Shown here piece after piece: positions 25 through 63,106 of a stretch of DNA of 63,159 nucleotides. The position numbers were made by a program, and so were the translations under genes. The DNA is taken from the NCBI GenBank assembly GCA_028867615.1, contig JAGWGC010000001.1:3188-66346 (forward strand). Reading direction: 5' to 3'. A model generated the notes under the pieces. It made no database searches. It saw nothing but the letters and a program-made list of their open reading frames with translations, and was not told where the DNA came from. Each line of letters starts with the position of its first letter. Within the stretch, counting starts at the first letter, position 1. The stretch is from Nitrososphaerota archaeon (lineage in GTDB: Archaea > Thermoproteota > Nitrososphaeria > Nitrososphaerales > Nitrosopumilaceae).

Positions 25-42
25 AATTTCAAATCTGATATT
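25..42. promoter_or_regulatory. Degenerate copy of palindromic motif (AATTTCA-aatc-TGATATT) upstream of DUF302 gene
   Basis: Resembles ATTATCA-N4-TGATAAT; TATA-like TTATAAT starts at 54. Confidence 0.5.
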
Positions 43-82
43 GTTCAAGGCTATTATAATGTGTGATATTGCTAGTATGGCT

Positions 83-490
83 ATGACAAGTGCGGAAAAG
101 AGCTCAAGTTTTAGCTATACCGTGAAGACTCTAAAGACAGTAAATCAGGCAGTTGATGATGTGACAACAAGTCTAAAGGATGTAGGCTTTGGCATTTTAG
201 GCACTCTGGATTTTAAGGAAATTTTACAAAAGAAGGGATTGGATTTCAAGGATGAATATAGACTCTTAGAAGTATGCAACCCTGGAGCCGCAAAACAGGT
301 ATTGGAATTAAATCCAGAGGTTGGGTTGCTATTACCATGTACTATTGCAGTGTATCGGAAAAATAATGAGAACTTTATCAGCTTGGCAAAACCTACATCT
401 CTTCTAAATAATATTCATGATTATAGATTAGAAAAATTTGGCGAGGAAATTGAACAAAAACTTGTACAAGCCATAGAGAAAGTGAAATGA
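83..490 (+). CDS. DUF302 domain protein
   Basis: YRLLEVCNPGAAKQVL...GLLLPCTIAVY signature; ATG at 83 (or 77) preferred over TTG at 41 from TATA position. Confidence 0.85.
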   Translation: MTSAEKSSSFSYTVKTLKTVNQAVDDVTTSLKDVGFGILGTLDFKEILQKKGLDFKDEYRLLEVCNPGAAKQVLELNPEVGLLLPCTIAVYRKNNENFISLAKPTSLLNNIHDYRLEKFGEEIEQKLVQAIEKVK

Positions 491-674
491 TGAATTCTCT
501 TGTTTCTAATCCTGGAATGGCTAGTCAATGTCTACCTGATGTACTTTCTAGCGTAAAACAGTTACTTGCCTATGATGTAAAAACAAAAGAACAATTTGAA
601 TCCGACCAAGTTAAATGCTCAATCCATCACCGACAAACTTTTTGTAAAGGACATGATTCACACACTATCAAGAT

Positions 675-1106
675 ATGAGAAAAAAAATCACTCGAATACT
701 TGTACCATTGGATGGTTCCAAAAATTCCCTGAAGGGATTGGATTTTGCAATTTATCTCGCAAGACAATGTGGCGCAACCATAACAGGACTATACGTATTA
801 TCGTTTTACATAGCAGATAGTGGTCCAAGAATATTCGGACCATATAAAAAAGATCTTCTCCGAAATGCAAAGAATTTCATCTACGATGCAAAAGTTCGTT
901 CAGCAAAAGAGGGTGTGGACCTGAAAGAAAAAATAATTGAGGGCGATGTAGTCTTCCAAGATATTGTAAAATACGCAAATAGTGGGAAATTTGACATCAT
1001 GGTCATGTCGTCAAGAGGATTTGGACCTGTAAAAGGATGGTTCCTGGGAAGTGTTACTTATTCTGCATTACATAAATCAAAGATACCAATACTAGTGGTC
1101 AAATAA
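675..1106 (+). CDS. Universal stress protein (UspA family)
   Basis: ILVPLDGSKNS N-terminus; MSSRG...LGSV...PILVVK C-terminus. Confidence 0.95.
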   Translation: MRKKITRILVPLDGSKNSLKGLDFAIYLARQCGATITGLYVLSFYIADSGPRIFGPYKKDLLRNAKNFIYDAKVRSAKEGVDLKEKIIEGDVVFQDIVKYANSGKFDIMVMSSRGFGPVKGWFLGSVTYSALHKSKIPILVVK

Positions 1107-1631
1107 ATGGATGAAAAATCATTCTTGGAGTTTCTAAGAAGAAGACGATCAATCAGGTCGTTTAAAGAAAACACAATCGATGAATCACAGATAAATGAGA
1201 TACTTGAAGCAATCAATTTGGCACCATCATCAGGTGGTCTGCAAACCTTTGAAATTTACCGGATAAAAAATAAAGAAACCAAAGACAAACTAGCTTTGGC
1301 AGCAAAAGGTCAAACCTTTGTAGCGCAAGCTCCTTTACTACTGGTCTTCTGTGCAAACCCGTCTCGTTCTGTTGAACGATTTGGAGAGAGATCACAGTTG
1401 TTTTCTGTTCAAGATGCCACCATCGCAGCTGCTTACGCTCAGCTAACATTGCATGCAATGGGGTTGTCCACCGTATGGATAGGGGCGTTTGATGAAAAAC
1501 AAGTCTCAGAGATACTGGATATCCCAAAAGGGCAAAGACCAGTTGCAATACTTCCCATAGGTTATGAAAATGAGACGCCAAAGGAAAAGTCAACTAGAGG
1601 GGTAAAAGACATACTACATGTAATAAACTAG
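1107..1631 (+). CDS. Nitroreductase family protein
   Basis: RRRSIRSF, APSSGGLQ, GLSTVWIGAF and ILPIGY motifs; abuts USP stop codon. Confidence 0.92.
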   Translation: MDEKSFLEFLRRRRSIRSFKENTIDESQINEILEAINLAPSSGGLQTFEIYRIKNKETKDKLALAAKGQTFVAQAPLLLVFCANPSRSVERFGERSQLFSVQDATIAAAYAQLTLHAMGLSTVWIGAFDEKQVSEILDIPKGQRPVAILPIGYENETPKEKSTRGVKDILHVIN

Positions 1632-34729: not shown

Positions 34730-35001
34730 GTGATAGTGAATTTGCCAGGAGTCATTAAAGAAGAAGCTAAACTCAGTGTCTCAGACAATTATGTGGAAAT
34801 ATCTACAGAACATGGAGAAGAAAAGAGCAAAACTATATCCGAAAAGAACGATGAGCCTTTCCTTATCACTGAAATTTACTCATGCTAGAAAAAGTGGATT
34901 CTGTGAAATCTAATGCAAAACTAAACAATGGAATTTTATCAGTGGAAATTCCAAAAATAACTGCAACTCAGAAACCTAACCGCGGAGATATTACCATCTG
35001 A
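34730..35001 (+). pseudogene. Hsp20/alpha-crystallin pseudogene
   Basis: VNLPGV.KEE..LSVSDNYVEISTEH...EEKSK, then a frameshift to NYIRKER*...*...AKLNNGILSVEIPK; matches intact Hsp20 at 58636. Confidence 0.8.
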
Positions 35002-35229: not shown

Positions 35230-35661
35230 TTATTTTACTATAAGTACTGGAATCTTGGAGTCATGAAGTACACCATTAGCCACACTGCCAAGATATTCTT
35301 TACGTGGATTTCCCTCACCTCGCGAGCCCATCACTATGATATCAGATTTGCTTGATTTTGCATAACCAGCTATTGTCTTAACTAGATCACCTGATACTAC
35401 AACTTTTTCATTGAATACAATTCCATGTCTTGCGGTACTTGTTTTTGCATGAGACATTATCTTTTTAGCATTCTTCATCAACACAATCCTGTATGATTTC
35501 AATATTTGCGCTACTTTTGGGGAGAAGTTTGGTATGACATAGATGCCAGTTATGGCGGCATTACTCTGTCTTGCTAGTGAGATTGCCTCATTTAATCCTC
35601 GAATAGAATTCAGTGATCCGTCAAGTGGCACAAGAATCCTCTGGAATCTGTTTTGTAACAT
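35230..35661 (-). CDS. Universal stress protein
   Basis: ILVPLDGSLNS; MGSRG...LGSVA...PVLIVK. Confidence 0.95.
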   Translation of the reverse strand: MLQNRFQRILVPLDGSLNSIRGLNEAISLARQSNAAITGIYVIPNFSPKVAQILKSYRIVLMKNAKKIMSHAKTSTARHGIVFNEKVVVSGDLVKTIAGYAKSSKSDIIVMGSRGEGNPRKEYLGSVANGVLHDSKIPVLIVK

Positions 35662-35703
35662 GTTTTATTATTTGGGTCCTAGTTGATTTAAACTCAAAGT
35701 ACA

Positions 35704-35721: not shown

Positions 35722-35799
35722 CCGCATAAAAAAAGATCTATTTTTCAACAGACATTCATGCTAATTTTGTTCACCCCTTAAGATATTAGGCAAGTGCAG

Positions 35800-35817
35800 A
35801 TTATCAAAAATGATATT
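35800..35817. promoter_or_regulatory. Palindromic motif copy (ATTATCA-aaaa-TGATATT) upstream of CBS gene
   Basis: One mismatch to consensus; TATTTATC starts at 35829. Confidence 0.65.
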
Positions 35818-35858
35818 CTTCGTTGATATATTTATCGTGAAAAGATCAAAACTGGATA

Positions 35859-36719
35859 ATGCTGTTTGAACACCCTGTCCTACTAACCTCTATTCTGAAA
35901 AAAGCAATTACAGTAACTCCAAATACAAGTGTGATTGCCGCACTAGACCTTTTACTACGATATAGAATAAAGCGCCTAGTAGTGATGAAAAACAACAAAC
36001 CTGCAGGCATCATAACAGAAAAAGATCTTACAAGATCCACATCCGCATTTAGTGGACGCGCCATTGGAGACATGATAGTAGGTGACTTTATGTCAGAGAA
36101 TCTAATAACAGTAAAGAAAAACAATTCTATTTATGATTGTGCCAAATTAATGAAAAAGAACAGCATCAGCTCAATCGTAGTGCTAAATGAAGATGACTCC
36201 CTTACTGGAATTATCACTAAAACTGACCTTGTTGGAGCATTTTTGATCAATGGTGCAACAGACAAGAAAGTGTTGGAATACACGAAACGTAAAATAATTA
36301 CGGTAGATCCTAAAGAGTCACTTTTCGTAGTTCAAAGTGTACTTGTCAACAACAAAATCTCGAGGGTCATAGTAGGGAAAAATAAAATACCTGTTGGAAT
36401 TATCACATATCGGGACTTTCTCCCTGCTAAAACAGCTAATTGGATACAAGAGTATGCTGAGATAGACGATCTAGAAGAGTTGAAAAATCATCCAAGATTA
36501 AATGAATTTAATGCAAATAGTCTTGATCATGCCCTTACATTTAGAGCAGAAGACATCATGACTCCAAATCCTATTGTAGTAAACAAAAATGAATCCATCT
36601 TCAAAGCAGCATTACTAATGATTCGTCATCAAATAAGTGGATTACCTGTAACCCATGACAAACTATTGACAGGAATTATTACAAAATCCGATATTGTGAA
36701 TGCCATATCAAAAGATTAG
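35859..36719 (+). CDS. CBS domain protein (4 CBS)
   Basis: GIITEKDL, GIITKTDL, GIITYRDF and GIITKSDI repeats. Confidence 0.93.
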   Translation: MLFEHPVLLTSILKKAITVTPNTSVIAALDLLLRYRIKRLVVMKNNKPAGIITEKDLTRSTSAFSGRAIGDMIVGDFMSENLITVKKNNSIYDCAKLMKKNSISSIVVLNEDDSLTGIITKTDLVGAFLINGATDKKVLEYTKRKIITVDPKESLFVVQSVLVNNKISRVIVGKNKIPVGIITYRDFLPAKTANWIQEYAEIDDLEELKNHPRLNEFNANSLDHALTFRAEDIMTPNPIVVNKNESIFKAALLMIRHQISGLPVTHDKLLTGIITKSDIVNAISKD

Positions 36720-45918: not shown

Positions 45919-45936
45919 ATTATCATCTGTGATAAT
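45919..45936. promoter_or_regulatory. Perfect palindromic motif copy (ATTATCA-tctg-TGATAAT)
   Basis: Exact consensus; minus-strand TTTTAAAT begins at 45907; weaker copy at 45992-46009. Confidence 0.65.
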
Positions 45937-46293
45937 AGATGCGCGTACCGGATATGAAACTTTGGGTTTTCACATCTAGTGATTGACATGTACTATCATA
46001 TGTGATGATCTTGAATTTCTTTATCAATACAATTGAATGCATAGGTAACTGATACTGTAATTCTCTAAAGTATGAAATGGATGAATGCTGTGATCACTGC
46101 ATTTTAGTAAATAACGTATATCTGTCATATCATGATGAAATAAAGCGATTCTAAAGTAAATTTTATGAAAAGCATGATATAATGCAATTTTTAAACCATT
46201 TTTTGTAAATATTTTGATTCTGATCCTGATTTTCATTGCTGAAATTCATATCCTTATATAATATCAATGCTTTTTACAATTCTCTTAGTGTAT

Positions 46294-49200: not shown

Positions 49201-52200
49201 GCTAATCTTGTAATTGTAGTATTGGACAATGATGGGCATTCTGTTTGTAACTCTAATATTGTGATGAACATACATGATCCTACCTCTGGTGTGACTACAC
49301 TCTCAACAGGAAATGGAATAACTGCCAATCCATCATGTGGTCTATATGATGCACAATATGTGGTTCCAGAGGTTGGAAATTACACAATAGATATGACGGC
49401 ACAAAACCCATCTGGTGTTGCAAACTTTACTACATCATTCTTGTCTGCAGACAACTTTGACTTTGATGTGATAAGAACATCTGATAGCAAGATTGATCCC
49501 ACAAGTAATCCTAATTCATTTGACGTGGCAATTGATGTTTCTTCATTTGTAAACGTAAACAACGTGATAATCCAAGAATCGGTTCCATCTTCATTTAAGG
49601 TATCTACAGATGCTACCGTTCAGACAATGGGAGATGTTCAGATTTTGACTTGGTCAAAATCTTTGATAGGAAACAAAACCTCCGTAAGTTATACATATTC
49701 TGTTCCTCCTGTATATCCACAACTTTATGCCTTGGGTCCAGTTCAAATTACATCCGGTTCTAACACATACTTTAAGGAAGCAAGACCTTGGTTTGTTGCA
49801 GTAGATCCGTCTGTAAACCGGCTCTATCTGCGTGCATTTACATCTCCTGACGCCCCCACCTTGGGAACTCACTCTGCCATACTTCCGGTAGGAACATTCA
49901 AGGGTAACAGTGGTACCGGGTTTGAAGATTTATCCATGTCATCTGTAATGGGTACTGCTACAACATCCGTCACAAAAACCCTGACAAGCATTGCCCAGAC
50001 TGCACACCAGGACAATTACATTGCACGATTTACCTCAAGTTCGCTTGCAGCACAGACGATACCTGCAGGCACATGGACATTTGCATTGCAAACCTCAGAA
50101 GCTAATAATAACGCCAACTCTTTCATTGTGGGATCTCTATACGTCTGGAGACCTTCAACTAGCAGTGTAGTGGGGTATGTATACGATAGTGACACTGCAC
50201 TTGGAACTGAGTGGGGTGCCACAACAACGGGGAGGGTAGTAACGGTCACTGGCAGTTCTGTTACAACCCAAGATGGTGATGTACTTGTGTTTGAGATGTG
50301 GAGACATGCAGCACAGGCAGCTAACACTGGATATGTGCAGACATTGTATTTTGATGGTACCACAGATGTAACAAACGGCGGAACTGCAAGTGCTGCAAGC
50401 TATATCCAGTCAGGATCTCCTATGGTATTTGGTACACTTGCTGCAAGTTCAGTAACATCTTCTGATGCTGTACATGTAGCGGTAACACGGAATACATCTC
50501 TCTCAGATTCTGTATCGGTTACTGATGCTGTTAGTGTGCATGCTGTAAAGACTGTATCTCTCTCAGACTCTGCAAGTGCAGCCGATGCCGTCTCCACCGC
50601 TGCCTCTAGGGCACAATCACAGTCTGAGAACACCCAAGTCTCTGATACCGTGACCACTGCTGTCAACATGACAAAATCTACCTCTGACTTGATAACACTA
50701 TCCGACACCATGACAACATCTTCTGGCAAATCTCAATCACAATCTGAGAACACCCAAGTCTCTGATACCGTGACCACTGCTGTCAACATGACAAAATCTA
50801 CCTCTGACTTGATAACACTATCCGACACCATGACAACATCTTCTGGCAAATCTCAATCACAGTCTGAGAACACCCAAGTCTCTGATACCGTGACCACTGC
50901 TGTCAACATGACAAAATCTACCTCTGACTTGATAACACTATCCGACACCATGACAACATCTTCTGGCAAATCTCAATCACAGTCTGAGAACACCCAAGTC
51001 TCTGATACCGTGACCACTGCTGTCAACATGACAAAATCTACCTCTGACTTGATAACACTATCCGACATCGTTGCAGCCCAAAAGTCTACGAGCATATCTA
51101 TTAACGACACGACGGAATTGTCTGATGGGCTTTCAGCCGCTGCCTCTAAACAAATTTCTAACTTGGATGAATTGACGGTAACGGATACCGCAAGTTTGTT
51201 AAAAATTAGTCCTGATCAATACCTTGTTCCAAACAACCAAACTACAGTAATTGTCACTCCAAGCAAGCCACATCTGATTGTGACCAGTAGCAATGCTGCA
51301 CTTTCATCAATAATGATTCCAACGACTGTGACATCGCCTACGCTAAGCTATGCTACAATTGTATCTTCAGGAACCGTACACCTCTTACACTCGCTTAACA
51401 TAACTAAAGATACCAATGGTGATAACAAAACAGAAGTTGTAGTTACAATTCCTGCAGTGACTGATATCAGCAACTCTGCATGGGATGGTATATTGCAACT
51501 GCCTACACTTCAATCATCTTCATCGCTAGTACTACCTACTCCGCAAGGTCAGGTGGCCACCGCAAATACGGTAATTGGAATGGGATCTTCTCTTCCTCTG
51601 ACATTTAACAATGCAACACGTATCTTGTTTGTTGGTGAAGCAGGATCACATGTAGGGTACTTCTATACTCCCACCTCAGTTACTGAAATTATTTCAACAT
51701 GTACCAGTGATGATCAAAGTGTAGCCAATGGACTTGCTGCAGGCGAAAGTTGTAAGATAAACGTTGGAACTAGTCTGGTAGTGTGGACAAAACACTTTAC
51801 AGGCTTTGTAACTTGGACTCTAAAGCCAGCTCCTATAACGCCATCTGCTCCTCAACTCCCGACTGCTTCAGGAGGTGGATATGGAACTGGAGTTATAACC
51901 CCTATGGAAACTGGGGCAGAGACTGCAGCAGGTATGTTGTCAACAGGGGTTACATTGTATGATGTGACATACGACGTTTGTGATAAGCAACAAGTCCAGT
52001 TTACGGTAGGCTCACCTGATTCAACCACTCCAACTGTTGAATTTGCAACCCCAAGCGGCGTGGTAGAAGCAAAAATTTCATCACACCAGCCATATGCCGG
52101 ACTATATGACCTGACCAAACAGTATGTATTATCTTATGATGCTAAACTAAAGCCTGGAACGAAATCATTCAACATGCTAATTACGCCAGGAAATGGAACA

Positions 52201-53446: not shown

Positions 53447-54313
53447 TCAGGTCTCTAAAAGTTTTCTAATTGTTTTTAATTCCTGCATTCGCCTTACATC
53501 CATTTTTGGATAGGACATTTTGAGTTTTTTTAGCGTATCAAGAACAATCTGGGAAATAATCAGGTGAGTGTTCTCTTTGTCATCTGCTGGAATGATATAC
53601 CATGGCGCATTAGGTATGCTTGTGGCAGTTAGACAATCTTCGTAAGCCTTCATGTATTGCTTCCAGAATTTTCTTTCCGTCATGTCAGCAATGCTGAATT
53701 TCCAGTTCTTTTTTGGGTCGTCAATACGTTTGAGAAAACGTTTTCGTTGTTCTTCCTTTGAAATGTGAAGGAAAAATTTGAGGACTCGAGTTCCATTTCG
53801 GTATAAGTGATTTTCCAGATCTACGATTGAACGATATCTATCATACCAAATAGTTTTTCTGTTGGATTCATCCGCAACTCTTTCACTATCCAGTATATCT
53901 GGGTGTACGCGAACAATCAGTACTTCCTCATAATGAGAGCGATTGAAGATGCCTATTTTTCCCCGTTCGGGTAGGCAACGAATTTCACGCCATAGAAAAT
54001 CATGTTCAAGCTCATTTGCACTAGGGTGCTTAAAACTAAATACTTGACAGCCTTGTGGGTTTATGCCTGACATGACATGTTTGATGGAGCCATCCTTTCC
54101 TGCAGCGTCCATGGATTGGAAGATCAACAATATGGAATATCGGTTATGTGCATAGAGTAGATTTTGCAATGAGCTTAATTCATGGATGTGTTCACTGAGT
54201 ATCTGTTTGTACTGATCTTTTGATTTGTAAACCGGCTTTACCACTGTGGGCCATTTGTTGAGTTTGACTTTTTCTCCAGGCCTCACACGAAAGTCTTTGG
54301 AATTTATCTGCAT
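53447..54313 (-). CDS. ppk2: Polyphosphate kinase 2 family (class III-like) protein
   Basis: [29 protein letters not shown] and KNWKFS motifs. Confidence 0.93.
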
Positions 54314-54653
54314 CTAGCCATCTATGTACTGAGAACTTCTTATCCTTGCTGTTTTACATTGACATGATGGTTGCATACTAGGAGTATGGAAAGAATCCCA
54401 GGGAAATTCAAAGAACGAAGCCATCGCTTCACACATTGTTTGGCTTGATTTCTGAGACGATTACATTGTTTCTAGGTTTGTAATTTGCTACTGGATCTTT
54501 GGTAGAGAACATGCCTGCTTCATTTTTGCTTGAAACCATGCCATTTGTCTTTATCTACATATTTTACAGATTACGAAAATAAAAGCCAGTAAGTGATTAT
54601 CTGTTCACGGACTGAAATCTATGTTACATATGTGATCTATCTACAATCCTTTG

Positions 54654-54671
54654 ATTATCGCAAACAATAGT
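54654..54671. promoter_or_regulatory. Degenerate palindromic motif copy (ATTATCG-caaa-CAATAGT) upstream of CBS-HPF gene
   Basis: Extends to TGATTATCG/CAATAGTCA; TTTTTATA starts at 54683. Confidence 0.5.
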
Positions 54672-54729
54672 CATCTGGTTTCTTTTTATAACCCTGATTA
54701 TTATTGAGAAAGAAGGAAAAAAGAACAAA

Positions 54730-55902
54730 ATGGTTTCACCTCAAATTATCTATGCACATTTGAAAGCAGTCAGGGATCTTAAGATAGACAAGATGCTAAA
54801 GAAAGCAACTACCATCGATGTTTCCTACACTGTATCTAAAACGGTTGGGGCCCTGGTGAATTCAAATTCTTATGATGCATTTTGTATGGATGGTAAAGAT
54901 GTACTTACTGTGAGTGCAAGAGAACTTTTGGGAACAAAAGATATCGAAAATATGAAAATAAAGCCAATTTTACGAAAAATTCAGGTCCTGACTAGGGATG
55001 ATACGATAGAAAAAGCGGCTGCAATTTTGTCTCATTATAGAATGCGTTCAGTTCCAGTTGTTGAAGGCAATGAGATAGTAGGAGTAGTTGACGTGAAAGA
55101 CATTGTTGAACTATTACATAAACAGGATTTAAAATGGATACCTGCAAACAACATTCTCACAGCAGACCCAATTATAGTAAAAAACAGTGATTCGCTTGCA
55201 ACTGCAAGAAAAATAATGATTACCAAAAAAATAGATCATCTTCCAATCATCAAAGCCAACAAGGTTTCGCATGTCTTAACCTCGATGCATCTGTTGCAGG
55301 TGATGAAACCTACTGAAAGGCTAGGAAGCATGTTGCGGGGACTAGACTTACACAAGGAATACCAGTCCGAGATTGGAAATATGGGTAGTGCACGCATTCC
55401 AAATCTTGACACTCATGAATCTCTTAGTACTGTAATAGAGTCAATGTTAAAAAATGATGCATCGTGCTGCTTACTCACTTTGTGGGATCACGTACATGGA
55501 ATAATTACCTACAAAGACATTGTCAATATACTTGAATCAAAAATCCCCAGCGATGTTCCACTTTTCATTGTTGGTCTCCCAGAAGATTACAGCAGTGCCT
55601 CGATTGTAAAGACAAAATTCGATAAAATAATTAGAAATCTAATCAAAGTATTTCCTGATGTAGAACAGGCAAAGGCATCAATCAAGACGATACATAATCA
55701 AGTCAGTAATAGGCCACATTACGAAGTTACAGTCAGGATATTCAGTCCCTACAGAACCTTCAACTATACTGAAATGGGATGGGATCTCTCAAAAGTTTTC
55801 GATATTCTTGGCACCAAAGTAGCCAGAAATCTGGCCCAGCATGGTAAGAAGAAACGTTTGAAGACATCAATTAGAAAAATAGACAAAAAAGACATTTTCT
55901 AA
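54730..55902 (+). CDS. 4xCBS plus C-terminal HPF/RaiA-like domain; putative ribosome hibernation factor
   Basis: CBS repeats followed by ~100 aa ending YEVTVRI...GWDLSKVFDILGTKVARNL. Confidence 0.78.
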   Translation: MVSPQIIYAHLKAVRDLKIDKMLKKATTIDVSYTVSKTVGALVNSNSYDAFCMDGKDVLTVSARELLGTKDIENMKIKPILRKIQVLTRDDTIEKAAAILSHYRMRSVPVVEGNEIVGVVDVKDIVELLHKQDLKWIPANNILTADPIIVKNSDSLATARKIMITKKIDHLPIIKANKVSHVLTSMHLLQVMKPTERLGSMLRGLDLHKEYQSEIGNMGSARIPNLDTHESLSTVIESMLKNDASCCLLTLWDHVHGIITYKDIVNILESKIPSDVPLFIVGLPEDYSSASIVKTKFDKIIRNLIKVFPDVEQAKASIKTIHNQVSNRPHYEVTVRIFSPYRTFNYTEMGWDLSKVFDILGTKVARNLAQHGKKKRLKTSIRKIDKKDIF

Positions 55903-55999
55903 GCAACCACATAATATCTGCATTTTTCTCACATCTTGTGCCTTGAGGGTGATTGGGATATTGAAATTGATAAAAACTCACCTGTATGTTATTACTTTT

Positions 56000-56869
56000 T
56001 CATGTAAAATGCGGATCCTGTTTTTGCATTATTGCATGAATTTTTACTTCATGATATGCACGAATAATATCGGTCGCACTAATCACTCCCTCTAGGTTTC
56101 CTCTGTGATCTACCACTGGAACACCACTTATCTTATACTGGACCATTAATTTGGCTGCTTTGGCAAGATCCTCTTCAGATTCGATTGTGAGAAGCTCATC
56201 ACCAATCAAGTCGCCAACTTGTAATTCTTTGGCAGAAGTTCTCAGTGGCAGATATTCCAGTGTGGTTTCAGTTCTTGTTCCAAACTTGAAATACTCGCTA
56301 TTTTTCAAAAATGTATCATAACTGATTACTCCAACTGGCTTGCCATCGTTATCCGTTACAACAAGCCTTGAGATCTTATTTTTATTCAATGCATTAAGTG
56401 CAAATGGTAGAGAATCAGATTTGCGACATGTTATCATCTTGGTATTCATGTAATTTTTGACTTTGTAGATGCCTCTGAATAATGCCGAGAAATTTTTTAC
56501 AAGATCAGATTTTGTAACAATCCCTATGAGTTTTCCATCCTCATCTACAACGACAATGGAGCTTATCTGAAATGCGTCCATTCGTATTGCACATTGTACT
56601 AAAAGTTCCTCTTGGTCATTCATGATTGTTATGATGTGCCTACTCATTATCTCGCTGAGGGATATTTTATCCAAAGTTCTTGTTGTTCTATCATTTTCTA
56701 AAAACTTGCCAATATCACGCTCAGTTACTATGCCGATGGGAATGTTGGCGTCATTTATAACGACAATTCGTTTTATATCGTTTTTTTTCATGAGTGATAA
56801 TGTTTCATAAATATTATTCTCAGAACTTAATGTTATGACAGGAGTGGTATAAGTGACAGATTTCGTCAT
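56000..56869 (-). CDS. CBS domain protein (4 CBS)
   Basis: GIVTERDI, GIVTKSDL, GVISYDTF and GVISATDI; ATG at 56869 preferred. Confidence 0.92.
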   Translation of the reverse strand: MTKSVTYTTPVITLSSENNIYETLSLMKKNDIKRIVVINDANIPIGIVTERDIGKFLENDRTTRTLDKISLSEIMSRHIITIMNDQEELLVQCAIRMDAFQISSIVVVDEDGKLIGIVTKSDLVKNFSALFRGIYKVKNYMNTKMITCRKSDSLPFALNALNKNKISRLVVTDNDGKPVGVISYDTFLKNSEYFKFGTRTETTLEYLPLRTSAKELQVGDLIGDELLTIESEEDLAKAAKLMVQYKISGVPVVDHRGNLEGVISATDIIRAYHEVKIHAIMQKQDPHFT

Positions 56870-56910
56870 TATGTGTTTAACCTCACACACGAATTTAAGA
56901 CACCGGTATG

Positions 56911-56928
56911 ATTCTCAGTTATGATTGT
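56911..56928. promoter_or_regulatory. Palindromic motif copy (ATTCTCA-gtta-TGATTGT)
   Basis: Minus-strand TTAAATTC about 12 nt away. Confidence 0.5.
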
Positions 56929-56953
56929 AAGAAAAATTTTGAAGATTCCCAAT

Positions 56954-57286
56954 TTATACAAAATTGGGAATAATCTCTACATCAAGCATGCCATTATTGA
57001 AACAAGTCATAATGGACTTGATCTTGGATTTGTACAAAAAGTACTTTTTCCCATCTTCATTAATTGAGCCTGATATGCCAAGAAGTTTGAGGCCATGTAA
57101 TCTCTGTACTCTCCTGTATGCAGTACTGATTGGTACGCCACACTCCTTGCTGAGATCAATAACTGATTTTGGCATTTCAATTGTTGATTCTAGTATTAGG
57201 CGAGAATACTTGTCTGCCATGACTTCTAGCAGAACATCTTTTGTTGTTTGTTCTTGGACAGGTTTGCCCTGGATTAATACTTGCAT
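56954..57286 (-). CDS. Winged helix-turn-helix (ArsR-like) transcriptional regulator
   Basis: ADKYSRLIL...PKSVIDLSKECGVPISTAYRRV..L...LL...GKKYFLY. Confidence 0.88.
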   Translation of the reverse strand: MQVLIQGKPVQEQTTKDVLLEVMADKYSRLILESTIEMPKSVIDLSKECGVPISTAYRRVQRLHGLKLLGISGSINEDGKKYFLYKSKIKSIMTCFNNGMLDVEIIPNFV

Positions 57287-57407
57287 GACGACTTGATCTC
57301 TTTTTATGATATAACAAGTAGGACCGCATTGCCGTGCAATGCAGACTTTCTGTGCAGAATCAGCCAGATTGCCTATAAAAAATCCTATTGTAAAGATGAT
57401 TATTTTC

Positions 57408-57854
57408 TCAATGCACTATGGTTACAGGGCATTGTGCGTGCTCTGAGACATGTCTTGCAGTGCTTCCAAGGCGTTTTACCACTGATATGCCTGTGAGTCT
57501 TCTACTTCCCATGATTATCATGTCAGCCTTTAGTTTTTTTGCCTCTTTTAGGATTGCATTTGAAACATCATCGTGTACAATTTTGTATGCAGTCCTGGTA
57601 CCTTCCTCTCTGCATTTCTCCACAACTTTTCCCAACTCTTTTTCCCCCTGTTGCTTGAGGGTTTTGACTATTTCCTGGTAATTTGTTACGGCTGCTCCTG
57701 AAAACACAGAGTCGTTTATTGGATAATACACAGGGATGACCATGAGGAGTGTCAGATCTGCTGTAAAGTTTCTTGCAATGTCTTTTGCCAATGCAAGAGC
57801 TTTCTTTGACAAGGGCGAACCATCATATGGAATTAGGATATTTTTTAATGACAT
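57408..57854 (-). CDS. Universal stress protein
   Basis: ILIPYDGS; MGSR...LGSTA...CPVTIVH; ATG at 57854 preferred. Confidence 0.93.
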   Translation of the reverse strand: MSLKNILIPYDGSPLSKKALALAKDIARNFTADLTLLMVIPVYYPINDSVFSGAAVTNYQEIVKTLKQQGEKELGKVVEKCREEGTRTAYKIVHDDVSNAILKEAKKLKADMIIMGSRRLTGISVVKRLGSTARHVSEHAQCPVTIVH

Positions 57855-57897
57855 TTGCAAGTTATAAAATACCTCACCGATATTAACGAATTGGTGC

Positions 57898-57938
57898 ATT
57901 ATCAAATATGATTTTATCTTGTTATCAACAGTGATAAT
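57898..57938. promoter_or_regulatory. Two tandem palindromic motif copies between divergent USP and CBS genes
   Basis: ATTATCA-aata-TGATTTT (57898-57915) and GTTATCA-acag-TGATAAT (57921-57938), each about 12 nt from a TATA-like box. Confidence 0.7.
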
Positions 57939-57978
57939 TTTACCAGTAGTTTTATATCAAATTGAGCAATTTCACTCC

Positions 57979-58428
57979 ATGCTGACTGCGCGAGCAATCA
58001 TGTCAAAAAAAATAATCACTATGGAGTCAACTACATCTCCAACAGATATCGCAAAGGTAATGCACAAAAACAATGTAAGCTGTGTCATTGTGACTCAAAA
58101 TGAGAAACCATATGGAATAATAACTGAGAGAAGCTTTTTATCGAAAATTTCAGCACAAAATAAAAAACCATCTGACGTGAAATCGACCGAAATGATGTCT
58201 TCTCCTGTTATCACTATTTCTGCATCTGCATCTGTTGATGATGTTGCACAGGCAATGTTGGAAGGAAAAATTAGACACGTACTGGTGGTAAATGACAACC
58301 AGCCATTGGGAATAATATCTATAACTGATTTTCTAAAACATTTTGGTGCAATAACTGCTGATTCAGATAGTTACAAAAAAGATCTATACGAAAATTTGTT
58401 TGAAGAATACGAATACTGGGATAGATAA
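57979..58428 (+). CDS. CBS domain protein (2 CBS)
   Basis: GIITERS, MMSSPVITI and GIISITD motifs. Confidence 0.92.
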   Translation: MLTARAIMSKKIITMESTTSPTDIAKVMHKNNVSCVIVTQNEKPYGIITERSFLSKISAQNKKPSDVKSTEMMSSPVITISASASVDDVAQAMLEGKIRHVLVVNDNQPLGIISITDFLKHFGAITADSDSYKKDLYENLFEEYEYWDR

Positions 58429-58635
58429 TAATTTTTTTAATAAAAAACAAGCGTTTCCATAGTGAATGGTATGAAGATGGTGTTGTTTTATTAGTTGATC
58501 ATGCGCGAATATCATAATACTACCACCAACGTAATAATGCTATCTGAAGTCTATTGCTAATAAAATAATACGAAAGCGAACTTCGACACTGGTAATCATG
58601 AGATCGTTTTTAAGCAATTGTGTGATGTATAGAAT

Positions 58636-59154
58636 ATGGTAAAAATCAGTAACGAGAAACGCCTTCCTGTAACAGCACAGAATCCGTGGCTTGAACCTCT
58701 TTTCACGCAGTGGAATGAGCTACCGTGGTTTAAAACCGGGTTTATGGAGATGGATTCAACATGGGACAAACTTTCAGAAAATTTTGAACACATGTATGAG
58801 ATGTTTCCAAATTACATGCGACAGTTTCCAAAAGACATAAGCTGCGACCTTGTAGACCGTGGAGACATGTATGTTCTCACTGCAGACTTGCCGGGAATAC
58901 AAGATGAGGATGTAAAGGTAAATGTAACTGGCAGACATGTGGAAATTTCAGCAGAGCACAAAGATGTAAGCGAGGAAAAATCAAAAAATTATGTCAAAAA
59001 TGAAAGATCTTTCCTACGGTATAGGAGAATTTTGACTGTTCCAGAAAGGATCGCTGAATCCGATATAACAGCAAAAATGAATAACGGAACTTTGACAGTA
59101 GAGTTACCCAAGAAATCAAGCATCAAGAAAGAAACTAAAGTGCAATCAAAGTAA
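58636..59154 (+). CDS. Small heat-shock protein Hsp20
   Basis: DLVD...ADLPG...ER...AKMNNGTLTVELPK. Confidence 0.95.
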   Translation: MVKISNEKRLPVTAQNPWLEPLFTQWNELPWFKTGFMEMDSTWDKLSENFEHMYEMFPNYMRQFPKDISCDLVDRGDMYVLTADLPGIQDEDVKVNVTGRHVEISAEHKDVSEEKSKNYVKNERSFLRYRRILTVPERIAESDITAKMNNGTLTVELPKKSSIKKETKVQSK

Positions 59155-59408
59155 CTTTACTATTTTTTATTTCCAAGCATCATGGTTTGATGCTATATAA
59201 TGTATTTCACCCGGTATCTGTCAAAAGGTGATTGAATGCAATTTGCTTGTAGTTCCTAGTTTTTTATTCGTAATGGAATGTAAAACTGTAATATTTGCTC
59301 CCTCTAATAATAGATCACATCTCTGTGTACCTGATTTGACATAATCCTGATGAGGTACACGGCAAATAAACAACATATTTTTATTGAATCATCCTTGTTA
59401 AAGAGGGA

Positions 59409-59987
59409 ATGACTGTTAAAAGACAGCCGCATCCTGCAAAACATGAACAGACAAGGAGCATAAGTTATCGACTCCCAGAGTATATTGTAAACGAATTGGA
59501 GACAGAGGCAATGCAAAAGGAAGTTTCACAAAATGTTCTGGTAAAACAAATATTGGAAAAATATGTTCGGTGGGATAGATTTGCAGATAAGATAGGCATA
59601 ATCCCAGTGCCAAAGGAAATTCTCAAGATACTTGGAGATGAAATGAAGGGTGATGAAATAAACAAGATAATTGACATCATGATTCCGATGATAAAAGACT
59701 GGGTCATGTTCATGAAAGGAAATTATGACTTGAAGCGGGCAATAGAAGCACTTGAAGATTATATGCGTGCCTCTGGCATGACATCAGATCATAGAATAGA
59801 AGGAGGCATACATCATTTCATAATACAACACAATCTTGGGATTAAGTGGTCACTTTTCACTGAACAACTATTAAAGCAAATATTTCACCAGTTTTTACCA
59901 GGACTTGCAATGCAATGCAAAACGACTCCTAATACTACTATTGCAAGTATAGCTCTTGGTTCGGACTTTAACGAACACGTATACTAG
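59409..59987 (+). CDS. Putative regulator with N-terminal ribbon-helix-helix
   Basis: RSISYRLPEYIVNELETEA...VSQNVLVKQILEKY. Confidence 0.65.
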   Translation: MTVKRQPHPAKHEQTRSISYRLPEYIVNELETEAMQKEVSQNVLVKQILEKYVRWDRFADKIGIIPVPKEILKILGDEMKGDEINKIIDIMIPMIKDWVMFMKGNYDLKRAIEALEDYMRASGMTSDHRIEGGIHHFIIQHNLGIKWSLFTEQLLKQIFHQFLPGLAMQCKTTPNTTIASIALGSDFNEHVY

Positions 59988-60002
59988 ATTGCATCAGTGT
60001 AT

Positions 60003-60758
60003 CTATGATACTGTTACTACTCCGATTCGCCATGGGTGTATAGAACAGAAATAATGGTACACACCAGGCTTGTCAAACTTGTGAGTAAACGTATCACCTG
60101 TCTTTAGAATGGGGCTGTTAAACATTGGGATGATAGTTCCCTGACTGTTTATGCTTTGAACTGTGTGATCAATATTATCTTGGTTTTTCCATGTTACAGT
60201 TGTGCCCTGTAAAACTTCCAAGTTAAGCGGTATGAAGAAACCAGTGCTAGCCTGTACTGAATTGCCATTTGGTATGGTCACATTGGCAGTTAGATATGAT
60301 GTTACATTGTCAATTGGATGGCTCTTGCTACTTACTAGATATTCTAAAATGTAGTTTTGATCACTGTTTTTCAATTCTGCACTTATCTTCCACAAGGATC
60401 CTGCCGCTGATGCAAGTAGCCTATCGCCATCTAAAATCATGTCGTATGTGGTATTATCTCCTGAAATTACAGGTCCAGATGCATGAAATGAGCCGTCAGT
60501 ACCATATGCAAACTTCCATTGGCTTGCTGTCATCCTTTCAACTACTGTAGTCTGGTCCGTGCTTATTGTTACAAGACCCCTGTCAATTGTAGTGTGATTT
60601 GAAAGTAGGATCCTAACACTTGACTCGTACATTTGCGGTGAGCCAGAGTTTAGTAATGCAATTCCAGACCCTTTCATTATAGTTGAGGACGAATCTGCAT
60701 ATGCCGTACCAAACAATACCGTAGAAACCAAAATTAAAAGTAAAATGAAATGTTTCAC
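60003..60758 (-). CDS. Secreted protein with C-terminal cupredoxin domain
   Basis: GTTVTWKN.D...HTV...YFCSIHPW; GTG start at 60758 gives a clean signal peptide (ORF track start 60773). Confidence 0.87.
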   Translation of the reverse strand: MKHFILLLILVSTVLFGTAYADSSSTIMKGSGIALLNSGSPQMYESSVRILLSNHTTIDRGLVTISTDQTTVVERMTASQWKFAYGTDGSFHASGPVISGDNTTYDMILDGDRLLASAAGSLWKISAELKNSDQNYILEYLVSSKSHPIDNVTSYLTANVTIPNGNSVQASTGFFIPLNLEVLQGTTVTWKNQDNIDHTVQSINSQGTIIPMFNSPILKTGDTFTHKFDKPGVYHYFCSIHPWRIGVVTVS

Positions 60759-60795
60759 TATGGACGAATACATCCAATTTTATTTTAATTCAATT

Positions 60796-60861
60796 ACGAT
60801 TATCAACACTGATAATCGTTTATGTGCATCATGATAAACTATAATTATCAGCTGAGATAAT
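60796..60861. promoter_or_regulatory. Two palindromic motif copies between divergent cupredoxin and flavin-binding genes
   Basis: Perfect ACGATTATCA-acac-TGATAATCGT (60796-60819) and ATTATCA-gctg-AGATAAT (60844-60861). Confidence 0.75.
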
Positions 60862-60902
60862 CATGTTTTGTCTTTAATTAAAAGATTATAGGAGATGAAT
60901 AC

Positions 60903-61382
60903 ATGGTTATAATTCCAAAAGAAGTTCAAGGTATGATGTCTAGACAAAAATTTGTCGTAGTGGGATCTATTGATTTGAATGGCATGTGTAACCTATCTCC
61001 AAGAACCTCGTTTTACTTTTTAGAAGATGTGATCTACTGGCTTGATTTTTTCAAGCATAAATCTCACTATAATTTCAAAAATGTTCCATGGGTAAGTGTT
61101 GCAGTATTTGACAAGGAGGATCTAAAGGGATATCAGATGAAAGGCAAGGTTAGCTTTGTGACAAACAAACAAGAGAAATCAAGAATTACTGATATCATAT
61201 GCCGTTCCGCAACAGGTAAGACTAGTGCAAAAATATTTGAAAGAATGGCTCATGCGGAACAACCAGAACTAATAATGTTCAAACCGCATGCGGTATATTC
61301 GTTAAATCCTGCAGAGGATTCTGGTACTGCAATCATGATTGATAGTGATTCAGAAACAGTATCTCTATTGGGTGTAAAATAA
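60903..61382 (+). CDS. Pyridoxamine 5'-phosphate oxidase-like FMN/F420-binding split-barrel protein
   Basis: G.CNLSPR...KS..N...P.VSVAV...GYQMKG. Confidence 0.85.
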   Translation: MVIIPKEVQGMMSRQKFVVVGSIDLNGMCNLSPRTSFYFLEDVIYWLDFFKHKSHYNFKNVPWVSVAVFDKEDLKGYQMKGKVSFVTNKQEKSRITDIICRSATGKTSAKIFERMAHAEQPELIMFKPHAVYSLNPAEDSGTAIMIDSDSETVSLLGVK

Positions 61383-61515
61383 TTGCAATTGATGACTAAC
61401 AATAGTGAGTACATCTTCTATTTCTGACACTTCATGCCAAAAAGTAGGATAAGACTTGGGTGTAGAGAAAAAATCGGACTCGGGACTGGTTTTTTATTCG
61501 ACAATCATGCGTAGG

Positions 61516-61953
61516 TTAAATTTTTTGCATCCTTGCTATTATCTCTGTACAAATTCGGCTCATCTCTGAATCAGAGCCAAGACTACATATCCTTGTCAAA
61601 TCTGTTGCTGTTACAATTCCAACTAGCTTGCCATTATCTACTACAGGCACCTTGTGGATTTGTTTTTGTTTCATCAGCTCGGCAAGTTCCCATAGGCTTT
61701 CTTCAGGATCTATCATGACCAATGGTGTTGACATTATGTCTTTGACAGAAGTAGATAGCGGTTTTTGAAGAGCAATGATTTTACGAACGAGATCCCTTTC
61801 TGTTAGTATTCCAACTGCGGTATTATTCTCAGTTATGATAACACACCCAATGTTTGCATCTTTCATCATCTTTGCTGCGTCCGAGACAGTTGATGAAGAG
61901 TTGATTGAAACTACATTGAATTTCATCACATTTCTAACAAAACTTTCTACCAT
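61516..61953 (-). CDS. CBS domain protein (2 CBS)
   Basis: GILTERDL, IMSTPL and GIVTATDL motifs; alternative start 61962. Confidence 0.93.
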   Translation of the reverse strand: MVESFVRNVMKFNVVSINSSSTVSDAAKMMKDANIGCVIITENNTAVGILTERDLVRKIIALQKPLSTSVKDIMSTPLVMIDPEESLWELAELMKQKQIHKVPVVDNGKLVGIVTATDLTRICSLGSDSEMSRICTEIIARMQKI

Positions 61954-61991
61954 GCGATGCATGGCATTCGTGGATTTAAAAAATCTAAATC

Positions 61992-62013
61992 TGATTATCA
62001 GAGATGAGAATCA
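61992..62013. promoter_or_regulatory. Palindromic motif copy centred between two divergent promoters
   Basis: TGATTATCA-gaga-TGAGAATCA with TATA-like boxes about 12 nt away on both sides. Confidence 0.72.
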
Positions 62014-62052
62014 TATATTCTTCTTAAATTCATTTTACAACATATTTGTGAC

Positions 62053-62391
62053 ATGTCACAAGAAATTGAATCAATGTACGATTACGTACTAGAAAACATT
62101 TCATCAAAATTGCAGAAAATAGATCCAGGGCTTGCCATGCGAGTAATGGAGTATGAAAGAAAATTCAATGATGTAGCGCCTGCTGTAAACTTACATGTTC
62201 ATTACAAGGCAGGAACAGACAGCGAAAAAAAATTGGACCAATTAAGGTCAAGATATGGATACTGCATGGCAAAAGAGGGAAAATCCAGTCTTCTTGCACA
62301 GGGGAACATGAGCCTAAAGACGATAGAAGCAATATCAAACGACCCTGAGGTTGAAACGGTAACAGGCTCTGCTTCAATAGCATCATACTAG
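62053..62391 (+). CDS. Hypothetical protein
   Basis: ATG start about 30 nt after TTAAATT; plausible composition. Confidence 0.7.
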   Translation: MSQEIESMYDYVLENISSKLQKIDPGLAMRVMEYERKFNDVAPAVNLHVHYKAGTDSEKKLDQLRSRYGYCMAKEGKSSLLAQGNMSLKTIEAISNDPEVETVTGSASIASY

Positions 62392-62621
62392 TACAATATG
62401 CATCTGGGGAATTAGGATCTACCTACTCCTAAATCTAGTCATTGAATTTATTTAATTTAATCATGGCCAAACTTGCCAACTCCTTTTGTGTTGAAAGTGT
62501 CTTGATGAAGAACTGTATCACAGATAGGGAGCGGGAGTGAAAAACCCATGGGATTGCTTCCATCGTGCTTTTATGCTCCTGTCACAATTCTCTATTGCTA
62601 ATACTGTTGTATTGGTAATTT

Positions 62622-62639
62622 GAAATCAATTTTGATAAT
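62622..62639. promoter_or_regulatory. Palindromic motif copy (GAAATCA-attt-TGATAAT) upstream of USP
   Basis: TTAATATG starts at 62650. Confidence 0.6.
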
Positions 62640-62680
62640 TGGGTATTTGTTAATATGTGCCAACATATGTAGTGATTTCC

Positions 62681-63106
62681 ATGAAACAAAAAATTAACAA
62701 GATTCTAGTCGCGCTTGATGGCTCTGAGAGGTCATTTAAGGGACTAAGGGAAGCAATTTATCTGGCAAGACAATGCGGAGCAACAATCACTGGATTGTGT
62801 GTCACACCTTTTTACACCGTCAACCTTGGACCATTACTTACATCTTTGAAGAATCAAACTCTGAAAGAAGCCAAGCAATTCATGGCTGATGCGAAGAAAC
62901 TTTGTGCACAAAATGGAATAGTGTTCCATGAAAAAATAATATTTGGAACAGAATCATGGCAGATTACTGAATATGCAACTTACAAAAAGTTTGATTTGAT
63001 CGTGATTGCTTCCCGAGGGCGTGGACCCATGAAAAGTACTTTCCTTGGAAGTGTGGCAAATGATGTCGTTCATAAATCGAAAATACCTGTATTGGTAGTC
63101 AAGTAG
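62681..63106 (+). CDS. Universal stress protein
   Basis: ILVALDGSERS; ASRGRG...LGSVA...PVLVVK; close paralogue of 675..1106. Confidence 0.95.
   Translation: MKQKINKILVALDGSERSFKGLREAIYLARQCGATITGLCVTPFYTVNLGPLLTSLKNQTLKEAKQFMADAKKLCAQNGIVFHEKIIFGTESWQITEYATYKKFDLIVIASRGRGPMKSTFLGSVANDVVHKSKIPVLVVK

What the first reader, a model, noticed from the sequence alone, without database searches (positions are those of the whole stretch)
53447..63106. DosR-like dormancy/stress gene cluster in an ammonia-oxidising archaeon
Seen: within 10 kb lie PPK2, a CBS+HPF-like protein, three further CBS proteins, two USPs, Hsp20, an FMN/F420 split-barrel protein, a cupredoxin and two regulators. Satellite blocks at 83-1631 (DUF302, USP, nitroreductase) and 34730-36719 (Hsp20 relic, USP, CBS) repeat the theme. 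Known: the mycobacterial DosR regulon contains several USPs, HspX, the CBS protein Hrp1, nitroreductase-like Acg and an S30AE/HPF-type ribosome factor. Inference: this is a convergent hypoxia or energy-limitation dormancy programme, and most members share the palindromic operator.
Basis: partly seen in the sequence, partly recalled or inferred. Interest (0 to 1): 0.82.

Follow-up and report, generated by a model that had tools for sequence, protein, structure and literature searches.

The report
Archaeal low-oxygen stress regulon and operator
In ammonia-oxidising archaea of the family Nitrosopumilaceae, stress and ribosome-hibernation genes share a conserved palindromic DNA site at a fixed distance in front of their promoters; the site likely binds an undescribed activator that is predicted to switch these genes on together when oxygen-dependent respiration falters.

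Summary
The gene list is correct. The genome has amoA, and the closest homologue is labelled Nitrosotalea. The operator is real: ATTWTCA-N4-TGAWAAT, ending 12 bp before the TATA box and about 41 bp before the start codon, which is an activator position. Eight of 13 cluster genes carry it; two more have weak sites; PPK2 and both regulators lack it.

It is not a local curiosity. Gene order is shuffled in relatives, but the site follows each target gene. It recurs in other genera of the family (57 of 429 genes, control 2 of 429). It co-occurs with two regulators, a ribbon-helix-helix (RHH) protein with an H-NOX/V4R-like domain and an ArsR-type protein (site in 49 of 54 genomes with both, 3 of 25 without). 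The CBS+HPF gene is a HibA-family hibernation factor. Predicted targets elsewhere include thermosome, P-II/Amt and AMP phosphorylase-RuBisCO.

Published data fit an inducible programme: similar genes rise in hypoxic sponge symbionts and switch on together in N. maritimus. They do not respond to ammonia starvation, and anoxia did not induce them. It works like DosR/lxa but is not DosR. The binding protein and the signal are inferred.

The parts
53447..54313 (-). PPK2, ADP-polyphosphate phosphotransferase; neighbour, no operator
   Evidence: site absent in 5 of 5 orthologues
54655..54670 (+). degenerate operator (4.2), 12 bp before a TATA box of the HibA-like gene
   Evidence: strong at this gene in 3 of 10 genus and 6 of 7 other-genus homologues
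54730..55902 (+). HibA/AHA-family ribosome hibernation factor (4xCBS + HPF-like domain)
56000..56869 (-). stand-alone 4xCBS protein (closest structures SriC, Dri); target
56912..56927 (.). operator (9.97) for the 4xCBS gene
56954..57286 (-). ArsR-type winged-helix regulator, 110 aa; co-occurs with the RHH protein; candidate co-regulator or alternative binder
57408..57854 (-). USP; target
57899..57914 (.). operator (11.8) for USP
57922..57937 (.). perfect operator (19.9) for 2xCBS
57979..58428 (+). 2xCBS protein; target
58580..58595 (+). degenerate operator (1.8), 12 bp before the Hsp20 TATA box
   Evidence: strong in 4 of 7 genus homologues
58636..59154 (+). Hsp20
59409..59987 (+). RHH regulator, 192 aa, with C-terminal H-NOX/V4R/VirS-N-like fold; leading candidate operator binder
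60003..60758 (-). cupredoxin-domain protein; target (start reassigned to GTG 60758)
60800..60815 (.). perfect operator (23.0) for the cupredoxin
60845..60860 (.). operator (19.1) for the split-barrel gene
60903..61382 (+). PNPOx-like FMN/F420 split-barrel protein; target
   Evidence: site in 6 of 6 genus homologues
61516..61953 (-). 2xCBS protein; target
61995..62010 (.). operator (21.8) serving two divergent genes at 41 and 42 nt
62053..62391 (+). 112-aa protein of no Pfam family; target
   Evidence: site in 16 of 18 homologues
62623..62638 (.). operator (11.2) for USP
62681..63106 (+). USP; target
26..41 (.). operator (11.2) before DUF302
41..1631 (+). DUF302, USP, nitroreductase (the last two have no site of their own)
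34730..34974 (+). frameshifted Hsp20 relic
35230..35661 (-). USP with weak site (5.6) at 35705-35720
35801..35816 (.). operator (21.6) for the satellite 4xCBS gene
35859..36719 (+). 4xCBS protein; target

Best explanation
The cluster is the core of a stress regulon of Nitrosopumilaceae whose genes carry one palindromic operator 12 bp upstream of their TATA boxes; the operator is likely bound by the cluster's RHH protein, which would act as an activator when low oxygen limits respiration. Shown: the operator, its fixed geometry, its conservation in front of the same gene families despite shuffled order, and its co-occurrence with the RHH and ArsR-type genes. Inferred: two RHH dimers each read one TGA-WWW-TCA box at a 13-bp period; the C-terminal H-NOX/V4R-like domain senses a small ligand or redox cue (O2, NO or a metal-dependent signal); the complex recruits TFB/TBP to promoters with a weak BRE; the ArsR-type protein is a co-regulator. 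Predicted output: ribosomes parked by HibA and perhaps 4xCBS proteins; proteins protected by Hsp20, thermosome and PAC2; adenylate-binding USP and CBS proteins; in some genomes AMP breakdown through AMP phosphorylase and type III RuBisCO, P-II/Amt, and cation ATPases.
For: Geometry: 17 own-genome sites fall at 40-44 nt from the start against at most 5 in any other 5-nt bin, with a TATA signal starting 13 nt after the site; position was not used in training. Sites upstream of BRE/TATA are the activator position of TrmBL1, Ptr2 and TFB-RF1 (PMC4158304, passages). A at -4..-2 before TATA is lower in 138 pooled regulon promoters than in 235 other own-genome promoters (0.76 vs 1.12). Transfer: a matrix trained on 42 Nitrosotalea sites finds 57 of 429 genes (control 2 of 429) in 18 loci of other genera and 147 of 629 (control 7) in 56 further loci. 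Regulators: RHH orthologue in 64 of 89 family genomes and 0 of 161 others; ArsR orthologue in 54 of 57 RHH-positive and 0 of 22 RHH-negative genomes; exact operator in 49 of 54 genomes with both, 3 of 25 without, control 0 of 79. In G183 the CBS-RHH-ArsR-cupredoxin cassette is deleted as a block. For RHH as binder: outer TGA in 50 of 258 and 49 of 188 flanks (expected 4.8, 3.4), and 13-bp spacing in 7 of 13 close pairs outside the genus; strand TRSI(S/T)YRL in 70 of 71 orthologues, different in paralogues; fold matches VirS-N, CdpR, BcsD, H-NOX, TRAPPC3, V4R at Z 4.4-7.2 and PutA RHH at Z 5.0. Inducibility: in N. maritimus, CBS-RHH-ArsR-plastocyanin (Nmar_1304-1307) and CBS-USP-HPF-MDH (0673-0676) have the gene order of operator-bearing loci L126/L118/L130 and L215/L219. 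Their CBS/USP/HPF targets are near silent (2-16 TPM) while RHH is at 31-50 TPM. They, with Nmar_1271/1272/1481, go from about 0 to 4-54 spectral counts together in one of six conditions. Hypoxia: two sponge thaumarchaeal symbionts up-regulate 19 of 20 and 17 of 17 changed genes, among them UspA, Hsp20, CBS, P-II and LDH/MDH (bioRxiv 2023.02.27.530229).
Against: No binding or expression data for this genome. Phylogenetic profiles cannot separate RHH from the ArsR protein. In G140 and G224 a divergent RHH remains without ArsR and without the exact operator. G011 keeps three strong intergenic sites although neither orthologue was found. The 13-bp period is not dominant within Nitrosotalea (3 of 18 pairs). 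Fold Z-scores are below 8, and no heme-ligand motif was identified. The N. maritimus induction occurred at 32 C, Fe-replete, and the authors read it as heat stress; oxygen was not reported in the passages I saw, and growth was fastest at 27 C without induction. Two of the CBS genes rise under Cu limitation and one was seen only under Fe limitation in another study. Anoxia versus normoxia changed only 3 and 0 genes in the symbionts, and the Kraft 2021 main text names no USP or CBS among proteins raised in anoxia (supplement closed). Links to N. maritimus and symbiont genes rest on gene order and annotation, not sequence. Kin are not independent in the counts.
Confidence: 0.5

Rival explanations
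1. Same regulon and trigger, but the 110-aa ArsR-type winged-helix dimer binds the inverted repeat (half-site centres about 11 bp apart) and activates like TFB-RF1; the RHH protein is the sensor or an accessory regulator.
For: Near-perfect co-occurrence with RHH and operator. ArsR/HlyU-like structures are the best hits. Strong sites lie next to distant ArsR homologues in other families that lack the RHH (G037, G034, G040).
Against: Half-sites are self-palindromic and form 13-bp arrays. G090 has only a split ArsR gene but two RHH genes and strong sites. One G034 site lies in a simple repeat, and most other hits in those families are in coding sequence. The protein has no evident ligand domain.
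Confidence: 0.25
2. The regulon is a heat or proteotoxic-stress response, not an oxygen response.
For: Targets include Hsp20, thermosome and PAC2. N. maritimus USP/CBS proteins appear only at 32 C and the authors conclude heat stress (PMC12974425 section 7).
Against: At 32 C under Fe limitation the set is off while Hsp20 Nmar_0010 rises further. A similar set rises in hypoxic symbionts in the field.
Confidence: 0.12
3. The signal is low energy charge or starvation in general (AMP/ATP read by CBS proteins), as in the first reader's second option.
For: Many CBS/USP targets, HibA, and AMP phosphorylase with a site in 4 of 4 genus genomes with upstream sequence. A 4xCBS gene follows the ArsR gene in most genus loci. 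Cu limitation raises two CBS transcripts.
Against: No change reported under ammonia starvation. Off in slow-growing Fe-limited cells and in biofilm.
Confidence: 0.08
4. The palindrome is a repressor site or has no function, and the clustering reflects a mobile cargo island.
For: USP, CBS and RHH (arCOG08805) genes are frequent on thaumarchaeal integrated elements (PMC6563490, passages). The cluster is missing from several near-complete genus genomes.
Against: Fixed spacing outside the core promoter in over 200 promoters; sites at scattered loci on at least 9 contigs of the own genome; cluster GC 36.9% vs genome 38.1%.
Confidence: 0.05

Closest known systems
Mycobacterial DosR/DevR regulon
   Same: Overlapping effector families: USPs, alpha-crystallin, nitroreductase and cation ATPase (listed as DosR-like in PMC3721108); CBS protein Rv2626c matches a cluster CBS protein at E 1e-13; HPF-type factor, PNPOx-like and PRTase members of DosR are recalled, not checked.
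   Different: No NarL/LuxR-type regulator found, no DosR box, different operator, one-component regulators, archaeal TATA promoters. Archaeal CBS proteins rank above Rv2626c.
Burkholderia low-oxygen-activated (lxa) locus and FNR/Anr regulons
   Same: Clustered USPs, Hsp20, nitroreductase and ATPase genes, shuffled among relatives, with one palindrome at many intergenic points (PMC3721108).
   Different: lxa/FNR motif is TGA-N6-TCA; here the core is TCA-N4-TGA. No CRP/FNR HTH above cut-off in the own genome; no FNR box in the cluster.
HibA/AHA archaeal ribosome hibernation factors
   Same: 4xCBS + C-terminal HPF-like domain, same length; best and full-length profile hit is P. abyssi HibA, 9SR9, E 4e-34.
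   Different: Ribosome binding untested here; its place in an operator-controlled regulon is not mentioned in the sections I read.
Archaeal upstream activators TrmBL1/Tgr (TGM), Ptr2, TFB-RF1
   Same: Palindromic site upstream of BRE/TATA; TGM shares the TATCA half-site (PMC4158304).
   Different: Spacing differs (TATCAC-N5-GTGATA); no TGM match in the cluster; different protein families and targets.
RHH regulators with tandem boxes (MetJ, Arc, AmrZ; recalled) and H-NOX/V4R sensors
   Same: RHH N-terminus; C-terminal fold resembles H-NOX/V4R/VirS-N.
   Different: This fusion (arCOG08805 by annotation) has no characterised member in my searches; ligand unknown.

Membership tests
DosR regulon | NarL/LuxR-type response regulator DosR | tested here: not met
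   PF00196 not found in own genome (77% complete; rings in 12 of 14 controls)
DosR regulon | DosR box upstream of targets (motif recalled) | tested here: not met
   0 matches with up to 2 mismatches in the cluster, 6 in the genome
DosR regulon | effector set of USPs, Hsp20, CBS, HPF-type, nitroreductase | tested here: met
DosR regulon | induction by hypoxia/NO/CO and need for anoxic survival | not testable with these tools
   indirect published data only
FNR/Anr/lxa regulon | CRP/FNR-family regulator and TGA-N6-TCA box | tested here: not met
   no PF13545 match over cut-off; no FNR box in the cluster
HibA/AHA | N-terminal module of four CBS domains | tested here: met
HibA/AHA | C-terminal HPF/RaiA-like domain | tested here: met
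   profile aligns through the HibA C-terminus; predicted beta-alpha-beta-beta-beta-alpha at 278-378; a stand-alone homologue 36% identical passes the Pfam S30AE cut-off; the Foldseek list showed CBS matches only
HibA/AHA | long PTC loop between CBS3 and CBS4 | tested here: met
   loop at about 193-205 aligns with HibA residues 190-207; sequence diverged
HibA/AHA | binds and preserves 70S ribosomes; binds AMP/ATP | not testable with these tools
   needs biochemistry
H-NOX heme sensors (for the RHH C-terminal domain) | H-NOX/V4R superfamily fold | tested here: inconclusive
   several members at Z 4.4-7.2, rmsd 3.3-4.5 over 98-122 residues; below the Z 8 caution line
H-NOX heme sensors (for the RHH C-terminal domain) | proximal His and YxSxR heme motif (recalled) | tested here: inconclusive
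   no YxSxR seen in the alignment; H128 and H141 invariant, H135 nearly so; no residue-level structural alignment available
TrmBL1/TGM regulon | TATCAC-N5-GTGATA operator | tested here: not met
   no match with 1 mismatch in the cluster
Archaeal AMP pathway (distal target) | AMP phosphorylase and type III RuBisCO | tested here: met
   both over NCBIfam equivalog cut-offs; the middle eIF-2B-like isomerase is below the R15P isomerase cut-off

The most novel reading that the evidence does not exclude
Nitrosopumilaceae, including the dominant marine ammonia oxidisers, have their own oxygen/NO-sensing master switch: an RHH activator with an H-NOX-like ligand domain that drives ribosome hibernation, chaperones, P-II/Amt and, in some soil lineages, RuBisCO-linked AMP breakdown from one operator. 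It would be the archaeal counterpart of DosR/FNR, with ready marker genes for oxygen-limited nitrification.
Probability: 0.3. Interest if true: 0.9.

Novelty: new variant of a known kind. Interest (0 to 1): 0.76.

Why it matters
Ammonia-oxidising archaea need oxygen yet persist in low-oxygen soils, sediments and water columns, and how they sense this is open. My searches found no described operator or regulon for them. This gives a defined site, two candidate regulators, a target list and a cultured test strain in which the matching genes already behave as an on/off block. It would also recast published 'heat-stress' USP/CBS induction and hypoxic symbiont responses as one programme, and supply field biomarkers. 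Loss of the cassette in some lineages may mark niche differences.

Tried and rejected
Complex prediction of RHH x2 with ArsR x2 gave no answer. No RNA holder was listed for the cluster. Earlier findings of the scan: nothing by place, words or sequence. Foldseek on the RHH model gave mostly designed proteins; on the HibA-like model it listed CBS matches only. Atlas look-ups for RHH and the 112-aa ORF returned hypothetical clusters, plus a minor CspB-prodomain lead for the latter. Operator hits in other families G037, G034, G040, G033 were mostly coding or chance, and the perfect G034 site lies in a simple repeat, so I discount it. In family f15, 12 of 41 genomes had an exact match (control 2 of 41); several are strong and intergenic, but they do not sit before USP/CBS/Hsp20 genes at the canonical distance in the 12 loci seen, so extension to that family is unresolved. 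PPK2, TFB, and the nearby histidine kinase and receiver were rejected as direct targets. Qin 2018 was not held; I saw its values only as compiled in PMC12974425 Dataset S4. The AOA biofilm and N. viennensis anoxia papers gave no induction data for this set. Literature searches that found no description of the operator or regulon; the library lacks most subscription papers. No tree was built, so vertical descent versus transfer of effectors is untested.

Full report
OBSERVATION. Both satellite blocks are as described; the Hsp20 relic is frameshifted. amoA is present and the nearest RHH homologue is labelled Ca. Nitrosotalea sp.. The genome is 77% complete.

THE OPERATOR. A palindrome scan of the intergenic regions gave TTATCA-N4-TGATAA. 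Only spacer 4 is enriched: 23 intergenic matches with at most 1 mismatch, against 1-7 for each of ten other spacers. I trained a matrix on 42 sites from relatives' loci, excluding the near-identical G014 locus, and used no position information. In the own genome 17 sites end 40-44 nt before a start codon, against at most 5 in any other 5-nt bin, and a TATA signal begins 13 nt after the site. In the cluster, 8 of 13 genes have a site of 9.97-23.0 at 41-44 nt (five starts reassigned by me), two have weak sites with the right TATA spacing, and PPK2 and both regulators have none. Six intergenic sites reach 10 where shuffles give 0.1. A site upstream of BRE/TATA is where TrmBL1, Ptr2 and TFB-RF1 activate, whereas repressing sites lie downstream (PMC4158304, passages). 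The region before TATA is less A-rich in regulon promoters (pooled from other genomes, so a rough test). That the site is activating is inference.

TARGETS ELSEWHERE IN THE GENOME. Canonical sites precede further USPs and CBS proteins, thermosome, PAC2 (followed by a second Hsp20), P-II, a heavy-metal P-type ATPase, an MFS and an ABC ATPase, and AMP phosphorylase, which is followed by an eIF-2B-like isomerase and type III RuBisCO. AMP phosphorylase was found in 5 of 25 genus genomes, all with the regulon, with a site in 4 of 4 that had upstream sequence, and none in the other-family homologue. The RuBisCO-AMP phosphorylase pair was noted before in one Nitrosotalea genome (PMC5767755, passages).

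CONSERVATION. In the genus the genes are clustered but reordered, and the site follows each gene (partly the training loci). Four genomes 97-99% complete (G008, G011, G015, G021) lack the HibA-like gene and both regulator orthologues with these queries. Outside the genus, 57 of 429 genes in 18 RHH-centred loci have a site at 39-45 nt, against 2 at 120-126 nt. In 56 of the 69 titled loci (13 dropped as duplicates) the figures are 147 and 7 of 629. Family consensus: ATTWTCA-N4-TGAWAAT. Targets there also include Amt with P-II, LDH/MDH and a stand-alone HPF protein.

THE REGULATORS. The RHH orthologue occurs in 64 of 89 family genomes and 0 of 161 from other families at E<=1e-60. I tested 57 of the 64 positives and 22 negatives: the ArsR orthologue is in 54 of 57 and 0 of 22. 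An exact 20-bp pattern occurs in 49 of those 54 and 3 of the other 25; the reversed control in 0 of 79 (kin are not independent). Of the three exceptions, G183 has lost the CBS-RHH-ArsR-cupredoxin cassette and kept one site, G008's site is at a contig end, and G011 keeps three sites near decayed targets, which I cannot explain. Neither regulator is usually a target (RHH 0 of 12, 0 of 18, 1 of 49; ArsR 0 of 14, 1 of 12, 0 of 18). Profiles cannot say which binds. I favour RHH because each half-site is itself a TGA-WWW-TCA palindrome and sites form 13-bp arrays, the pattern I recall for MetJ/Arc-type dimers; its recognition strand is nearly invariant in orthologues and differs in paralogues; and G090 keeps sites with a split ArsR gene. 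Against this, strong sites neighbour distant ArsR homologues in genomes without RHH, and divergent RHH copies persist without operator in G140 and G224. The RHH model (pLDDT 79) has a C-terminal domain matching VirS-N, CdpR, BcsD, H-NOX, TRAPPC3 and V4R at Z 4.4-7.2: a consistent but middling signal, with conserved histidines and no canonical heme motif seen.

HIBA. The 390-aa protein's family profile hits P. abyssi HibA best and over full length (E 3.8e-34), with the CBS3-4 loop and an HPF-like C-terminus. The 4xCBS protein is closest to SriC and Dri; whether it is a hibernation factor or an HhpR-type regulator (PMC13324472, sections 11-12) is unresolved.

THE SIGNAL. No expression data exist for this genome. 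Two published sets bear on it. (1) Thaumarchaeal symbionts of two sponges changed 20 and 17 genes in field hypoxia, 19 and 17 of them upward, including UspA, Hsp20, CBS, P-II and LDH/MDH; anoxia versus normoxia changed 3 and 0 (bioRxiv 2023.02.27.530229, sections 20 and 26; supplements closed). (2) In N. maritimus, Nmar_0673-0676, 1271, 1272, 1304, 1305 and 1481 are at or near zero in five conditions and on at 32 C Fe-replete; at 32 C Fe-limited they are off while Hsp20 Nmar_0010 rises (PMC12974425, section 7, Datasets S1-S4 in part). Cultures were unstirred with 1 mM ammonia; oxygen was not reported in the passages seen, growth peaked at 27 C, and the authors conclude heat stress. Two CBS transcripts rise under Cu limitation, none under ammonia starvation, and one protein was seen only under Fe limitation in another study. 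Annotation gives Nmar_1305 as RHH (arCOG08805), 1306 as ArsR and 0675 as HPF/RaiA; the targets are near silent in planktonic and biofilm cells (PMC12448741, supplement rows). These gene orders match operator-bearing loci L118, L126, L130, L215 and L219, by order and annotation only. The Kraft 2021 main text names no USP or CBS among 88 proteins raised in anoxia. Together this fits a switch for impaired oxygen-dependent respiration better than heat alone or starvation, but does not prove it.

COMPARISON. It works like DosR and lxa (PMC3721108, passages) but fails membership of either: no LuxR-type or CRP-type regulator and no such boxes. USP, CBS and RHH genes are known cargo of thaumarchaeal integrated elements (PMC6563490, passages). 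I also saw passages of PMC13728122, PMC7554672 and PMC13475601, none describing this regulon. Six searches found no description of the operator.

VERDICT. The operator and regulon are real and family-wide (about 0.9). Activation is likely (0.8). RHH as binder is about 0.6 and a low-oxygen or respiratory trigger about 0.6. It is a new variant of a known kind, directly testable in a cultured strain. Interest 0.76.

Noticed in passing
window 45920-45935, 45993-46008, 46230-46245: Three strong operator matches (22.9, 11.0, 15.3) lie between the gene upstream of a dCache-PAS histidine kinase and a 2,374-aa LamG surface protein; none is at the canonical distance from my called starts.
   Followed up: partly
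window 46267-53391: 2,374-aa protein with three LamG domains, an MG2 domain and internal repeats; homologues flank the regulon genes in several relatives.
   Followed up: no
window 62053-62391; L061:2775-3128: 112-aa family with the operator in 16 of 18 homologues; no Pfam match; weak atlas lead to a protease prodomain fold. A similar ORF lies just before the window.
   Followed up: partly
L061:122-1060 and other contigs: Paralogous RHH and ArsR genes repeatedly occur as adjacent pairs, suggesting a recurring two-gene module with other operators.
   Followed up: no
L053:1609-5298: AMP phosphorylase, eIF-2B-like isomerase and type III RuBisCO operon under the operator, beside an ATP-cone protein, a CBS site-2 protease and CDC48.
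   Followed up: yes
L215:1999-2346: Stand-alone HPF/RaiA-like gene in an operator-led USP-HPF-MDH unit in a genus g19 genome; the HibA paper lists Nitrosopumilaceae among lineages lacking identifiable factors.
   Followed up: partly
L115, L122, L133, L151: Amt and P-II genes share the operator in several genera, linking ammonium uptake to the regulon.
   Followed up: partly
L033:19099-19977, L164:8477-9358: An adenylate/guanylate cyclase-domain protein carries the operator in several genus loci.
   Followed up: no
L240, L242, L243, L236: Very strong intergenic matches, some in 13-bp tandem, in family f15 genomes with no identified target.
   Followed up: partly
L251:3893-4435: Block deletion of the CBS-RHH-ArsR-cupredoxin cassette leaving one relic operator.
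   Followed up: yes
window 25597-30774: Polysaccharide deacetylases and a family 2 glycosyltransferase, a possible surface-polysaccharide locus.
   Followed up: no
window 11969-13520: cofD and cofC, F420 biosynthesis, relevant to whether the split-barrel target uses F420.
   Followed up: no
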